Assembly (NCBI GenBank): GCA_963710605.1
Contig: CAVQBA010000007.1
Span: 1-64,000 of the forward strand
Reading direction: 5' to 3'
DNA length: 64,000 nucleotides
From: an uncultured cyanobacterium
GTDB taxonomy: Bacteria; Cyanobacteriota; Cyanobacteriia; Cyanobacteriales; Cyanobacteriaceae
Below the pieces are notes generated by a model. The model was not told the origin of the DNA. It saw only the letters and a list, made by a program, of their open reading frames with translations, and did not search any database. Made by a program: the position numbers and the translations under genes. Below are positions 4,715-6,707 of this stretch, piece by piece (within the stretch, counting starts at the first letter, position 1; each line of letters starts with the position of its first letter).

Positions 4715-4799
4715 TACAGCACTCGTGCCAAGGTATAATGTTTATATATGAATAGTTTGAGCTTTTACATTTGTCCTAAGCGTTATGGCGACTGCTATG
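4715..4799. mobile_element. Short MITE-like element, same family as 25696-25788 in opposite orientation
   Basis: TACAGCACTCGTGCCAAGGTATAAT...ACTGCTATG matches the reverse complement of 25696-25788. Confidence 0.5.
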
Positions 4800-4849
4800 A
4801 CTAAATACACTCCATCGTCTTCATAGGCATAGCTCGTGGTAACATCATT

Positions 4850-6390
4850 CTCGATCGTTATTGACGGTAGCGGCACCTCGGTTATTCCAACCGTAATCGG
4901 GGTTGTTGTTGTTACTAATAGCAAAGTCACCGTTGAGGATTTGTGCCATCAATCCACTGGAGGTTAGAGGGCAGTGAGGGTTTCAAGTCCCCCTTGCGAA
5001 GGGAGAGGCTGTCACCTGAATTCATTTCAGGTGCTTGTAAGCTCCGTGGATTTAGGGGGATACCCAAGCTATTGTTACCTTCAATAAAATCGTTGTAAGC
5101 CAGCATGGAAGAAGAATCCCCCCTAGCCCCCCTTTGTAAGGGGGGAACAAGATCATGGTCGTGGTTGTGGGTGTGAGGTATCAGGGTATGATAAGTGTCT
5201 GTTTTTGTATTTTGAATTGCGTTGAGTATTAAGACATTAATGTCGGAAGGAAGTTTACGGATACCAGGGGCAAGGTGGTTCTTTAATAAGTCATGGGGGT
5301 GAGCTTGTTTGTCTAAATGTGAACCATCTACTGAGAGTAAGGCAGTAAAGTTATCACCGATAAAGGTACGTCTGCCGTTGATGTAAGTGGTTTTGGAATC
5401 GAAGCCTGAATAACCGTTGATGAAGCCATAAAGGTGAGCGGTTTCATGAAGGAGGGTGGTAAGGAGATCGTATTTACCATATGCTGGGGAGTTGGGAGTG
5501 GCTTGGAATGCCCAGTCTGTATTACTAATAGAGTATTCGGTGTTATCTAAGGGTAGTTTGGTCTATAAACCAGCCGATACCGTTTGCGTCATGGTCGATC
5601 GAGATTATACCTGTGTTAGGTTTGCCTTCGGAGTCGAAACCTGTGATGGTGGCTTCTGCTAGTTGTCCAGAGGGTAAGTCTTTTATTTCATAGGTGATGT
5701 CGATGTCAGTTTGAGGTATGAGGGTTGACCAGATGTGGTTTACACTATTATTTAGTTGATTAATTACTTGAGGATTTGAGTCATGGATGCTAAAGAATGT
5801 TTGCCCAGAATGGAAAGGGAAGAATTGCTCAGAAGGTATAATGCTGGAGAAAGATTCTTCGTGAAAGTTGATTTGAGTGGACTTGACTTGAGTAGAATTG
5901 ATTTTTCTACTCAAGATGGAAACAGGGAGAGAGTTAGATTTAATAACAGCGATTTGACCGGAGTTAATTTCGTTGGTGCTAATTTGTCCTATGCTTTTTT
6001 TTTCAATGCTAATTTGAGGGGTGCTAACTTGGAAGGTGCTGATTTGACTGGAGTTAACTTTGAAAATGCTAATTTGACTGGAGCTATTCTTGTTAATTGT
6101 AATCTCTTTTGTTGTGGATTTGTCGGAGCTAATATGACTAGTGCTAATTTGACTGGTTCTAAAGGTGGATGGGGGTGTAAAGATACTATTTTCAGTAATA
6201 CTATTATGGAATGTGGAAATATTCTTAGTGGAATTTATTGAGTAATTCTGAGAATTAGAATTTGCCTGAAGAGAAGCAGTGGGATAAATCAACCTTCTTT
6301 CAATAGCATTTTGAACATCTAGAGGAATATTGGTGAAAAAGTCTAAGCCTGTCAGAGTTTCAATGTCATCTACTCTTACAGTACGATCCG
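4850..6390 (-). pseudogene. Truncated, frameshifted remnant of a large secreted cyanobacterial protein: C-terminal end of a NucA-like DNA/RNA non-specific endonuclease, Ser/Ile/Gln-rich linker, then an HExxH metallopeptidase-like domain
   Basis: VRVDDIETLTGLDFFTNIPLDVQNAIE; DLPSGQLAEATITGFD...DANGIGWFIDQT. After a +1 frameshift near 5553 the frame continues ...YGKYDLLTTLLHETAHLYGF... (HExxH at 5434-5448). Further frameshifts near 4920-4970. Confidence 0.75.
5783..6241 (+). CDS. Pentapeptide-repeat protein nested antisense inside the nuclease/peptidase frame
   Basis: Typical cyanobacterial EELLRRYNAGER N-terminus and A(N/D)Lxx repeats; intact ATG to TGA. Confidence 0.8.
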   Translation: MDAKECLPRMEREELLRRYNAGERFFVKVDLSGLDLSRIDFSTQDGNRERVRFNNSDLTGVNFVGANLSYAFFFNANLRGANLEGADLTGVNFENANLTGAILVNCNLFCCGFVGANMTSANLTGSKGGWGCKDTIFSNTIMECGNILSGIY

Positions 6391-6669
6391 CAACGGCAGA
6401 CTTCGTCTGATCGAAGATATTGTAGGGAACGGTTAAGCCTCGCAAAGATTAATATACATACGATACATAAAATGAAAGCGAAACCCAACACTACCCTCGC
6501 ATGAGAATAATCAGTACCCAAACGTTGAATAATTTCACTATTAATAACCGTACCTAGACTCAAACTAATAAAATGTAACGGGAGAATCAAACACAGCAAC
6601 GTGATTGTAAATAAGGTGTTTAAATCTGCTCTTGAAAAACTAAAAAAACTTGTTTGATTTGATGAACCC

Positions 6670-6707
6670 AAAAGAAGAAAGACGTAGCATATTGTTACTA
6701 CGTCTTC
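6670..6707 (-). terminator. Probable intrinsic terminator downstream of the LabA-family gene
   Basis: Minus strand AAGACGTAG-loop-CTACGTCTT followed by a U-rich tail. Confidence 0.55.

What the first reader, a model, noticed from the sequence alone, without database searches (positions are those of the whole stretch)
5543..6390. Dual-strand coding: a complete pentapeptide-repeat gene nested antisense inside a nuclease-metallopeptidase protein
Seen: the + strand gene 5783-6241 lies wholly inside a - strand frame that stays open from a NucA-like nuclease C-terminus into the next domain. The two frames are exactly codon-aligned, so a + strand TTA, CTA or TCA would be a - strand stop. By my count the pentapeptide gene has 16 Leu codons (11 TTG, 3 CTT, 2 CTC) and no TTA, CTA or TCA, although TTA is visibly the dominant Leu codon in neighbouring genes. 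Both flanks of the overlap on the - strand encode recognisable domains, so this is not a simple shadow ORF. Known: some pentapeptide-repeat proteins (MfpA, Qnr) are DNA mimics, and cyanobacterial NucA needs a cognate inhibitor (NuiA). Inference: this may be a secreted nuclease carrying an inseparable antisense-encoded immunity or inhibitor gene, with the antisense translation acting as a linker. This copy of the large gene is truncated.
Basis: partly seen in the sequence, partly recalled or inferred. Interest (0 to 1): 0.85.

Follow-up and report, generated by a model that had tools for sequence, protein, structure and literature searches.

The report
Pentapeptide gene nested inside exoprotein gene
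A small pentapeptide-repeat gene lies backwards inside a large cyanobacterial secreted-enzyme gene, which reads the same codons as a spacer; the arrangement recurs in dozens of cyanobacteria, although the large gene is dead in this window.

Summary
The + ORF 5783-6241 is a pentapeptide-repeat protein (PRP). It lies codon-aligned inside the - ORF 5543-6445 and has 16 Leu codons (11 TTG, 3 CTT, 2 CTC) and no TTA, CTA or TCA, in a genome where TTA makes up 58% of Leu codons.

It is not chance. Of 59 homologous loci from other cyanobacteria whose host frame extends upstream, 57 carry an open antisense PRP frame at the same place. In 22 of 22 homolog pairs the PRP frame is the better conserved one (median pN/pS 0.37 against 0.89 for the host frame).

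So the PRP is a real gene. The host (Endonuclease_NS domain, spacer, HExxH domain, Ig repeats) is only kept stop-free across it and reads it as a Ser/Ile/Thr-rich spacer.

PRP divergence tracks the adjacent nuclease domain (Mantel 3-4 of 999) but not the HExxH domain. This fits a nuclease-plus-PRP cassette and gives indirect support to the immunity idea. Binding and expression remain untested.

In the window the host is a pseudogene: only a nuclease tail remains, with a frameshift, repeat insertions and a truncated end. The PRP ORF is intact but may be under relaxed selection. I found no description of this arrangement in four literature searches.

The parts
5783..6241 (+). Pentapeptide-repeat protein gene, 152 aa. 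The family-typical Met (MEREELL...) is at 5810. The earlier Met at 5783 is shared with orthologs P0122-P0124. An in-frame TGA lies at 5777-5779.
   Evidence: Pfam PF00805 at E 1.4e-21. AlphaFold2 mean pLDDT 89.8, an N-terminal helix followed by 5-residue-period coils. Foldseek hits are solved PRPs, e.g. 2f3l at rmsd 0.7 over 102 columns. Orthologs begin MDAEEFLPRMEVEELL. No TTA, CTA or TCA.
5770..5774 (+). GAGGA, a Shine-Dalgarno-like site 8 nt before the ATG at 5783.
   Evidence: Read from the sequence. AGGA, GGAG or GAGG lies at -20..-4 in 48 of 79 nested PRPs. The site cannot be separated from host coding of the conserved 'xP' residues.
5543..6445 (-). Remnant of the host-gene reading frame, 300 codons: nuclease tail, spacer, then the start of the HExxH domain. 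It ends at a stop caused by a frameshift.
   Evidence: Aligns to P0097 at E 2e-46.
6260..6379 (-). C-terminal tail of an Endonuclease_NS (NucA-like) domain (VRVDDIETLTGLDFFTNIPLDVQNAIE...). The catalytic part is missing.
   Evidence: Aligned to residues 157 onward of P0097; P0097 carries PF01223. The nuclease-domain tblastn query gave no hit in the window.
5783..6241 (-). Spacer: the host-frame reading of the PRP's complement. Composition S 36, I 24, T 16, N 12 of 153 residues. The motifs STFHNSITENS and FSSIIPSEQFF are the complements of the PRP's C- and N-terminal caps.
   Evidence: No Pfam family matches the window ORF or the L037 spacer. Median host-frame pN/pS is 0.89.
5546..5782 (-). Start of the HExxH domain (NPQVINQLNNSVNHIW...DLPSGQLAEATITGFD...DANGIGWFIDQT). 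It is also the upstream region of the PRP gene.
   Evidence: tblastn to the P0009 HExxH domain, positions 1-84, 68% identity. A1 invariant columns.
4931..5559 (-). Continuation of the HExxH domain in a different frame (frameshift near 5549-5559). HETAH lies at 5448-5434. Repeat insertions interrupt this stretch.
   Evidence: frame 1. (HExxH-domain positions 81-199 at 5197-5559, in a different frame from 5549-5797)..
4742..4930 (-). A third frame holding ILNGDFAISNNNNPDYGWNNRGAATVNNDRE, then a stop. The rest of the host gene is missing; the intact paralog L003 continues with a beta-sandwich and a Big_9 domain.
   Evidence: (frame 2), compared with the L003 protein.
6409..6490 (.). A dispersed repeat of about 80 nt at the 5' truncation point of the host gene.
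   Evidence: 26 blastn hits in the genome. The same repeat flanks other nested-PRP stubs.
4985..5062 (.). A dispersed repeat inserted in the host remnant.
   Evidence: Up to 34 blastn hits.
5110..5180 (.). A dispersed repeat encoding PLQRGARGD in the host frame.
   Evidence: Up to 14 blastn hits. The same peptide is present in frame in paralogs L002 and L003.

Best explanation
Two reading frames on opposite strands of the same codons are both maintained in a family of cyanobacterial loci.

Frame 1 is an ordinary small pentapeptide-repeat protein, mostly acidic. It has its own start (Met directly after an in-frame stop, with an SD-like site before it) and the usual N-terminal (EELLxRYxxGERDF) and C-terminal (TIMPDGS) caps. 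Its amino-acid sequence is under purifying selection.

Frame 2 belongs to a large multidomain gene, probably for an exoprotein: N-terminal region, Endonuclease_NS nuclease, spacer, HExxH (putative zinc-peptidase) domain, beta-sandwich, Ig/PKD repeats, up to about 11,600 codons. This gene runs straight through the PRP gene in the codon-aligned antisense frame. It translates the PRP's complement as a low-complexity Ser/Ile/Thr/Gln-rich spacer whose sequence is not itself selected.

Both frames stay open because neither strand uses TTA, CTA or TCA there.

Shown: conservation, the asymmetry of selection, and stop depletion on both strands.
Inferred: that both frames are translated.

The PRP and the nuclease domain diverge together as a cassette that recombines away from the flanking parts. 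My preferred functional reading, at about 35%, is that the PRP is the producer's guard or partner for that nuclease domain.

In this window the host gene is a pseudogene, and the PRP ORF survives intact.
For: Recurrence
- The same nesting occurs in own-genome paralogs L002 and L003.
- It occurs in 5 other genomes found by the genome search, with host ORFs up to 8,564 codons among those five.
- Among 75 public loci, 59 have the host frame open for at least 200 codons upstream. Of these, 57 have a codon-aligned antisense stop-free run of at least 110 codons. L072 failed only my position rule.
- The PRP Met lies one residue after an in-frame stop in 32 of 50 loci. The PRP start lies 16-37 codons before LPxGQLAEA in 44 of 50.

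Selection
- In 22 of 22 disjoint homolog pairs the PRP frame is more conserved than the host frame.
- Codons differing at a single base: 293, 152 and 815 at PRP codon positions 1, 2 and 3.
- Median pN/pS is 0.37 for the PRP frame and 0.89 for the host frame. The result is the same when the alignment is made on the host frame.

Stop depletion
- Median 7.5 stop-making codons expected in the PRP frame and 6.3 in the host frame per locus; 0 observed in 39 loci.
- Controls come from ordinary PRPs of the same genome and from generic PRPs, 1 of 38 at GC below 0.5, which is itself nested.

Domains
- In L037: PF01223 at E 4.2e-33, nothing for the spacer, PF00805 at E 3.8e-23 on the antisense strand.
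- HExxH is invariant in A1.

Cassette
- PRP against nuclease: rho 0.30-0.32, with 3-4 of 999 permutations reaching it.
- PRP against HExxH domain, PRP against the upstream segment, and nuclease against the upstream segment or HExxH domain: rho -0.12 to 0.12.
- Pairs whose HExxH domains are 92-94% identical have PRPs only 30-46% identical.

Window pseudogene.
Against: - There is no RNA or protein evidence for either product.
- The consensus promoter scan of 5400-6700 found 2 sites, both on the - strand, against 3.2 expected by chance. It found no terminator.
- The window copy compared with its ortholog L105 shows no third-position excess: single-base differences are 22, 6 and 25. The window also differs at 23 of 79 columns that are identical in three orthologs, including the TIMPDG cap, which reads TIMECG. 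The window PRP may therefore be decaying.
- The loci are relatives, not independent samples, so the counts overstate the statistical weight.
- Stop-free antisense runs of at least 110 codons also occur elsewhere in the host ORFs (32 of 1,203 runs). Openness alone is therefore weaker evidence than the selection pattern.
- The co-variation could reflect recombination hot spots rather than function.
- All 26 short-form loci carry the PRP, but only 7 show a nuclease match.
- Calling the HExxH domain a peptidase rests on the motif and a sub-threshold NF038122 match (27.6 bits against a cut-off of 80).
Confidence: 0.85

Rival explanations
1. First reader's reading. The PRP is a DNA-mimic immunity or inhibitor protein for the nuclease domain, embedded antisense so that nuclease and immunity cannot be separated.
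For: - PRP and nuclease divergence co-vary: rho 0.30-0.32, Mantel 3-4 of 999. They share the same nearest neighbour in 11 of 21 loci, and the top 7 pairs coincide. No other pair of adjacent segments co-varies.
- The PRPs are hypervariable (median identity 0.39-0.40) beside a conserved HExxH domain (0.60).
- The PRPs are acidic: median net charge -8, and pI below 5 in 60 of 79.
- 32 of 33 long-form hosts carry the nuclease directly upstream.
- G260 has a nuclease-bearing host and no NuiA match.
- From a search listing and abstracts only: MfpA and Qnr PRPs act as DNA mimics.
Against: - Binding and inhibition are untested.
- All 26 short-form loci carry the PRP, but only 7 show a nuclease match.
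- The PRP survives where the nuclease is gone, in the window and in L105, though orphan immunity genes could explain that.
- NuiA homologs are present in 4 of the 5 genomes checked.
- The window PRP has a net charge of only -3.
- No paper pairing a PRP with a nuclease inhibitor came up among the 12 of 41 papers listed.
Confidence: 0.35
2. Hitch-hiking or fusion by read-through. The PRP has a cellular role unrelated to the host. The large gene arose or grew by reading through a neighbouring opposite-strand gene, and the arrangement persists only because neither gene can be lost.
For: - Host-frame pN/pS of 0.89 shows the spacer sequence is not selected.
- The PRP persists without a live host in the window, in L105 and in several own-genome stubs.
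- Free-standing PRPs with the same caps and ordinary codon usage exist in this genome, e.g. C4:679779.
- Unchecked AI notes of this scan report other small genes nested antisense in giant ORFs in other phyla.
Against: This reading does not explain why the PRP co-varies specifically with the nuclease domain. It also does not explain why PRP cassettes are swapped next to near-identical HExxH domains.
Confidence: 0.35
3. Regulatory antisense. Convergent transcription of the PRP gene inside the host gene makes expression of the two mutually exclusive. The PRP transcript matters more than the protein.
For: The geometry fits: the PRP promoter region must lie inside the HExxH-domain coding sequence, 16-37 codons from LPxGQLAEA. 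From a search listing and abstract only: transcriptional interference is reported as frequent in bacteria (PMC10349824).
Against: An RNA-only role would not produce third-position-dominated substitution and pN/pS of 0.37 in the PRP frame. It would also not preserve the protein's N- and C-terminal caps.
Confidence: 0.1
4. Artefact readings. Either the PRP frame is an untranslated shadow of a 5-residue repeat in the host protein, or the host frame is not really read through.
For: The complement of A(D/N)LxG is itself a 5-residue repeat (xxQIS). Any such repeat therefore mirrors as PRP-like sequence.
Against: - Residues that are chemically unlike in the host frame map to coherent PRP core residues. 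In 22 of 22 pairs the PRP frame is the better conserved.
- Pfam matches the PRP frame and not the host frame.
- The nuclease and HExxH domains are always in one frame across PRPs of 127-303 codons. Stop-making synonymous codons are absent against a median expectation of 7.5.
Confidence: 0.04

Closest known systems
Long antisense overlapping (embedded) genes of bacteria: olg1 and olg2 of Pseudomonas aeruginosa (PMC8850804) and pop antisense to ompA in E. coli O157:H7 (PMC7103648). I saw the search listings and abstracts only.
   Same: A complete ORF of several hundred bases is embedded antisense in another protein-coding gene, with evidence of purifying selection on the embedded frame.
   Different: In those cases the embedded ORF is described as evolutionarily novel and lies inside an old gene. 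Here the embedded gene is the old, family-typical one (a PRP), and the enclosing frame is the unconstrained overprint, a spacer. The pair is conserved across many cyanobacterial genera. The evidence here is comparative only, with no Ribo-seq or proteomics.
Pentapeptide-repeat proteins of cyanobacteria: Rfr32 (2f3l/2g0y), Rfr23 (2o6w), Np275/276 (2j8k), HetL (3du1).
   Same: Sequence family, predicted right-handed beta-helix and N-terminal capping helix. Function is unknown, as for most cyanobacterial PRPs (PMC8145042, abstract passages seen).
   Different: These PRPs avoid TTA, CTA and TCA entirely and lie inside another gene. The review text contains no occurrence of 'antisense', 'overlap' or 'opposite strand'.
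DNA-mimic PRPs MfpA, Qnr and AlbG.
   Same: Same fold family. Weak sequence matches: Qnr at E 3e-9, MfpA at E 2.9e-5. Mostly acidic.
   Different: Their known target is DNA gyrase. No link to a nuclease is known or shown here, and dimerisation and surface mimicry were not tested.
NucA/NuiA of Anabaena (a sugar-non-specific nuclease and its inhibitor; PDB 1zm8 and 2o3b).
   Same: The host nuclease domain is Endonuclease_NS. The A1 profile weakly matches the NucA chains (E 0.02). A cytoplasmic inhibitor would be a logical requirement.
   Different: The PRP is not a NuiA (PF07924). A classical nuclease next to a NuiA gene sits elsewhere in this genome, at C5:276195-277177.
Polymorphic toxin and immunity cassettes (CDI, Rhs and similar). 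This comparison is recalled from my own knowledge, not from any call.
   Same: A variable enzymatic domain and a small adjacent gene diverge together and are swapped as a unit on a conserved scaffold. Orphan copies of the small gene persist.
   Different: The variable domain is internal rather than C-terminal. The small gene is antisense and inside the large gene rather than downstream of it. No toxicity or immunity has been shown.

Membership tests
Pentapeptide-repeat family (Pfam PF00805) | Tandem A(D/N)LXX repeats scoring above the curated cut-off | tested here: met
   76.1 bits against a cut-off of 20.2, E 1.4e-21.
Pentapeptide-repeat family (Pfam PF00805) | Right-handed quadrilateral beta-helix fold | tested here: met
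   This rests on prediction only. AlphaFold2 gives mean pLDDT 89.8 and pTM 0.83. The Foldseek top hits are solved PRPs.
DNA-mimic PRPs (MfpA, Qnr, AlbG) | Binds a DNA-processing enzyme as a DNA mimic | not testable with these tools
   A binding or inhibition assay is needed. Sequence similarity is only family-level.
Endonuclease_NS (PF01223), window copy | Catalytic beta-beta-alpha-metal domain present | tested here: not met
   Only about 40 C-terminal residues align. The nuclease-domain tblastn query gave no hit in the window. In the intact homolog L037 the feature is met at E 4.2e-33.
NuiA-type nuclease inhibitor (PF07924) | NuiA fold or sequence | tested here: not met
   The PRP matches only PRP families. 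NuiA matches lie elsewhere: C5:276836-277177 in this genome, and on other contigs in G101, G166 and G290.
NF038122 family metalloprotease (host HExxH domain) | Score above the curated cut-off | tested here: not met
   27.6 bits (L037), 19.2 (P0009) and 17.3 (L002) against a cut-off of 80. No Pfam family matches.
Zinc metallopeptidase (general) | HExxH motif conserved | tested here: met
   H339, E340 and H343 are invariant in A1. HETAH lies at window 5448-5434. Peptidase activity itself is inferred.
Antisense overlapping gene pair | Both frames open more often than codon usage predicts, across relatives | tested here: met
   57 of 59 loci. 0 stop-making codons observed against medians of 7.5 and 6.3 expected, in 39 loci. 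Controls.
Antisense overlapping gene pair | Purifying selection on the embedded frame | tested here: met
   22 of 22 pairs. Single-base differences by position 293/152/815. Median pN/pS 0.37. The window-L105 pair alone does not show it (22/6/25).
Antisense overlapping gene pair | Both products expressed | not testable with these tools
Toxin-immunity cassette | Enzyme domain and small gene co-diverge as a unit | tested here: met
   Nuclease against PRP: rho 0.30-0.32, Mantel 3-4 of 999. All other segment pairs are non-significant. Linkage is not excluded as the cause.
Toxin-immunity cassette | The small protein binds and neutralises the enzyme domain | not testable with these tools
   Co-expression and in vitro assays are needed.

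The most novel reading that the evidence does not exclude
Cyanobacterial giant exoproteins carry swappable nuclease modules. The cognate immunity protein of each module is a DNA-mimicking pentapeptide-repeat protein encoded on the opposite strand of the module's own linker. Toxin and antidote therefore share the same codons and cannot be separated by recombination. This would give cyanobacterial PRPs a first general biochemical role, and it would be a new way of hard-wiring immunity into a toxin gene.
Probability: 0.3. Interest if true: 0.92.

Novelty: new variant of a known kind. Interest (0 to 1): 0.8.

Why it matters
Long antisense overlapping genes in bacteria remain contested, and gene callers exclude them. 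This case is unusually clean and rests on comparative evidence from about 60 loci in many cyanobacterial genera. One frame is selected for its protein sequence, and the other is selected only to stay open.

The case explains inconsistent annotation. In Calothrix NIES-4105 the giant gene is annotated and no PRP is listed (PLSDB gene tables are incomplete). In Crocosphaera chwakensis CCY0110 the annotated protein (P0017) begins only at the spacer's end.

It shows one way large multidomain genes can include a spacer: by reading through an opposite-strand gene.

It also gives a testable lead on the function of cyanobacterial pentapeptide-repeat proteins, which a 2021 review calls almost completely unknown (PMC8145042, abstract). 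The lead is that the PRP travels with a nuclease domain as a cassette.

Tried and rejected
- Complex prediction on the L037 nuclease domain plus its cognate PRP, each given as a 22-row alignment: no verdict. Score 0.00 against a mark of 0.32, and the controls were not run. This is not evidence either way.
- The look-up of sequencing runs, kind rna, on window:4900-6900: no RNA holder was listed.
- AlphaFold2 of the L003 spacer plus HExxH domain with the 10-row alignment A1: a poor model overall (mean pLDDT 35.6; spacer residues 1-232 at 21-38). It is too weak to call the spacer disordered or to search by fold.
- Consensus promoter and terminator scan: nothing on the + strand.
- PRP against HExxH-domain co-divergence: rejected (rho 0.07-0.12; same nearest neighbour in 0 of 33 and 2-3 of 20-21).
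- The idea that all PRP genes have open antisense frames because of their repeat structure: rejected by ordinary PRPs of the same genome and by generic PRPs.
- The idea that the host spacer is itself a Pfam-recognisable PRP: rejected.
- The genome search across the phylum found the family in only 9 of 301 sampled genomes at E 1e-10 or better, so the family is patchy.
- Four literature searches and a term search inside the PRP review found no description of a nested antisense PRP or of a PRP acting as a nuclease inhibitor. Supplementary files were not consulted.
- One search failed because my coordinates were out of frame. I did not repeat it.
Full report
**Observation.** The window holds a - strand ORF at 5543..6445 (300 aa) and a + strand ORF at 5783..6241 (152 aa) that lies wholly inside it.
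- The + ORF is a pentapeptide-repeat protein (PRP): PF00805 at E 1.4e-21.
- In 841 long ORFs of this 3.93-Mb, 33% GC genome, TTA is 58% of Leu, CTA 9% and TCA 18.5% of Ser. That predicts 12.5 stop-making codons in this ORF.

**What the - strand is in the window.** The - frame aligns to P0097, a nuclease-bearing homolog, at E 2e-46. The alignment runs from the last ~40 residues of the nuclease domain through the spacer into the DLPSGQLAEA domain. The host gene is nevertheless dead:
- The catalytic part of the nuclease is absent. The frame is cut at an ~80-nt dispersed repeat at 6409-6490, which has 26 hits in the genome.
- The HExxH domain continues in another frame after about 5549-5559.
- Two further dispersed repeats sit at 4985-5062 and 5110-5180.
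- A third frame ends at about 4850, far short of the intact paralog.

**The host family.** The intact own-genome paralog L003 (788 aa) has 179 database relatives at E 1e-5 or better. Many of them combine PF01223 (Endonuclease_NS), an unassigned HExxH domain, and Big_9/PKD repeats.
- In full-length examples (P0009, P0029, P0097, P0018) the nuclease is followed by a QIS/QIG-rich stretch and then the HExxH domain.
- In L037, Pfam gives Endonuclease_NS at E 4.2e-33, nothing for the spacer or the HExxH region, and Pentapeptide at E 3.8e-23 on the opposite strand.
- The 'peptidase' label rests on the invariant HExxH motif and sub-threshold NF038122 matches.
- In Calothrix NIES-4105 the host is annotated as a 34.8-kb CDS next to a toxin-secretion ABC transporter. 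No PRP is listed, though PLSDB gene tables are incomplete.

**Is the nesting conserved?** Yes.
- Own-genome paralogs L002 and L003 have it.
- Nine of 301 sampled genomes of the phylum matched at E 1e-10 or better. In five other genomes the antisense PRP ORF (145-345 codons) is open inside the host ORF.
- A pattern scan returned 75 public loci, including Xenococcus, Waterburya, Prochloron, Nostoc, Crocosphaera, Plectonema, Calothrix, Tolypothrix, Chamaesiphon and Anabaena.
- I could anchor 74 of these. 73 have enough upstream DNA, and 59 have the host frame open for at least 200 codons upstream. Of those 59, 57 have a codon-aligned antisense stop-free run of at least 110 codons there. 50 of the 57 match a strict PRP N-terminal pattern.
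- The two exceptions are L072, whose 359-codon run failed only my position rule, and L100, with 95 codons.
- Of the 14 loci without the upstream extension, 3 have a run of at least 110 codons with the PRP N-terminal pattern (L075, L090, L092). The other 11 have none or only short runs (0-83 codons).
- The PRP Met follows an in-frame stop by one residue in 32 of 50 loci. The PRP start lies 16-37 codons before LPxGQLAEA in 44 of 50.
- Conserved host motifs are the complements of PRP features. 'SIRH(D/N)S' mirrors TIMPDG, 'SIPSEQFF' mirrors EELLRRY, and the His of 'SIHNS' mirrors the PRP ATG. I read this from the sequences.

**Which frame is selected?** I took 22 disjoint homolog pairs with 47-88% PRP identity.
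- The PRP frame is the more conserved in 22 of 22.
- Codons that differ at one base fall 293, 152 and 815 at PRP codon positions 1, 2 and 3.
- Median pN/pS is 0.37 in the PRP frame and 0.89 in the host frame. The figures hardly change when the alignment is made on the host frame.
- So the PRP is selected for its protein sequence, and the host frame is essentially free apart from stops.

**Stop avoidance on both strands.** In 39 loci with enough control codons, codon usage of the same host gene predicts a median of 7.5 stop-making codons in the PRP frame and 6.3 in the host frame. None is present.

Controls:
- In this genome, 26 of 48 PRP ORFs carry 10-74 such codons, near expectation. 20 carry 0-3 against 6-24 expected, and 2 are intermediate. 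Two places I had added by hand for L002 and L003 were dropped before that count.
- Of 79 generic PRP loci, 5 have none. Among the 38 with GC below 0.50, only 1 has none, and that one is itself nested in a host of this family.
- Openness alone is not rare in these host genes: 32 of 1,203 antisense runs downstream reach 110 codons. The selection pattern carries more weight than openness does.

**A nuclease-PRP cassette.**
- PRP identity does not track the HExxH domain: rho 0.08, with 197 of 999 permutations reaching it, and the same nearest neighbour in 0 of 33 loci.
- Pairs whose HExxH domains are 92-94% identical have PRPs only 30-46% identical.
- PRP identity does track the nuclease domain: rho 0.30, 3 of 999, same nearest neighbour in 11 of 21, and the top 7 pairs coincide.
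- With four consecutive segments in 20 loci, only nuclease-PRP is correlated (rho 0.32, 4 of 999). The segment upstream of the nuclease correlates with neither.
- Of 33 long-form hosts, 32 carry the nuclease and 31 the PRP. All 26 short-form hosts carry the PRP, but only 7 show a nuclease match.

**The window's PRP copy.**
- It folds confidently as a PRP (pLDDT 89.8; PDB PRP hits).
- Its closest relatives are 52-55% identical and share the N-terminal extension MDAEEFLPRM.
- The one ortholog with DNA, L105, is also nested in a truncated host with a nuclease tail and no HExxH domain.
- This pair shows no third-position excess (22, 6, 25). The window differs at 23 of 79 columns that are identical in three orthologs, including the C-terminal cap. 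The copy may be under relaxed selection.

**Mechanism.**
- Shown: two conserved open frames, asymmetric selection, and cassette-like co-divergence with the nuclease.
- Inferred: both frames are translated, the host reads the PRP's complement as a spacer, and the PRP has its own promoter inside the HExxH-domain coding region. An SD-like site is present in 48 of 79 loci.
- Function of the PRP: I put a nuclease partner or immunity role at about 35%. An unrelated role with fusion by read-through is also about 35%. A mainly regulatory antisense role is about 10%, and artefact about 4%.
- The PRPs are mostly acidic (median net charge -8). NuiA homologs lie elsewhere in 4 of the 5 genomes checked.

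**Comparison with what is known.** The closest known kind is the embedded antisense gene, such as olg1/olg2 or pop (listings and abstracts only). Here the roles are reversed: the old gene is the embedded one. Four literature searches and a term search in the PRP review found no description of this arrangement. Earlier unchecked AI notes of this scan report small genes nested antisense in giant ORFs of other phyla. None involves PRPs or cyanobacteria.

**Verdict.** This is a new variant of a known kind. Interest is 0.8.

Noticed in passing
window 6409-6490; also G000 C7:500426-500507, C1:184439-184522, C6:565975-566056: A dispersed repeat of about 80 nt with 26 blastn hits in the genome. It often lies directly beside nested-PRP stubs and marks where host genes are cut. 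The genome seems rich in small mobile repeats and in host-gene remnants.
   Followed up: partly
window 5110-5180; L003 and L002 host proteins: A 14-hit dispersed repeat is translated in frame as 'PLQRGARGD' in the apparently intact paralogs. This is a repeat insertion that a coding sequence tolerates.
   Followed up: no
G000 C5:276195-277177: A stand-alone Endonuclease_NS gene lies convergent with a NuiA homolog (PF07924, E 7.5e-27). This is the classical nucA-nuiA arrangement, separate from the PRP loci.
   Followed up: partly
L014, L036, L044, L048, L050, L093: Some hosts are crossed by a single antisense ORF of 301-345 codons that holds two complete PRP units in tandem, each with its own EELLxRY and TIMPDG caps.
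   Followed up: no
L048 and L100: Contigs binned as Bacteroidota and Polaribacter MAGs carry this otherwise cyanobacterial locus. The L048 PRP is 70% identical to a Nostoc one. This is either mis-binning or transfer.
   Followed up: no
L104 (AP018293.1 40000-56000): In Calothrix sp. NIES-4105 plasmid3 the host is a 34.8-kb CDS labelled 'peptidase S8/S53'. It sits beside a toxin-secretion ABC transporter gene and a 'filamentous hemagglutinin outer membrane protein' gene, which hints at the export route.
   Followed up: no
G000 C6:565237-566871: Two tandem nested-PRP stubs, with PRPs 81% identical, each keep a 259-285-codon host-frame ORF free of stops although the host domains are gone. I cannot say whether these mini-ORFs still matter.
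   Followed up: partly
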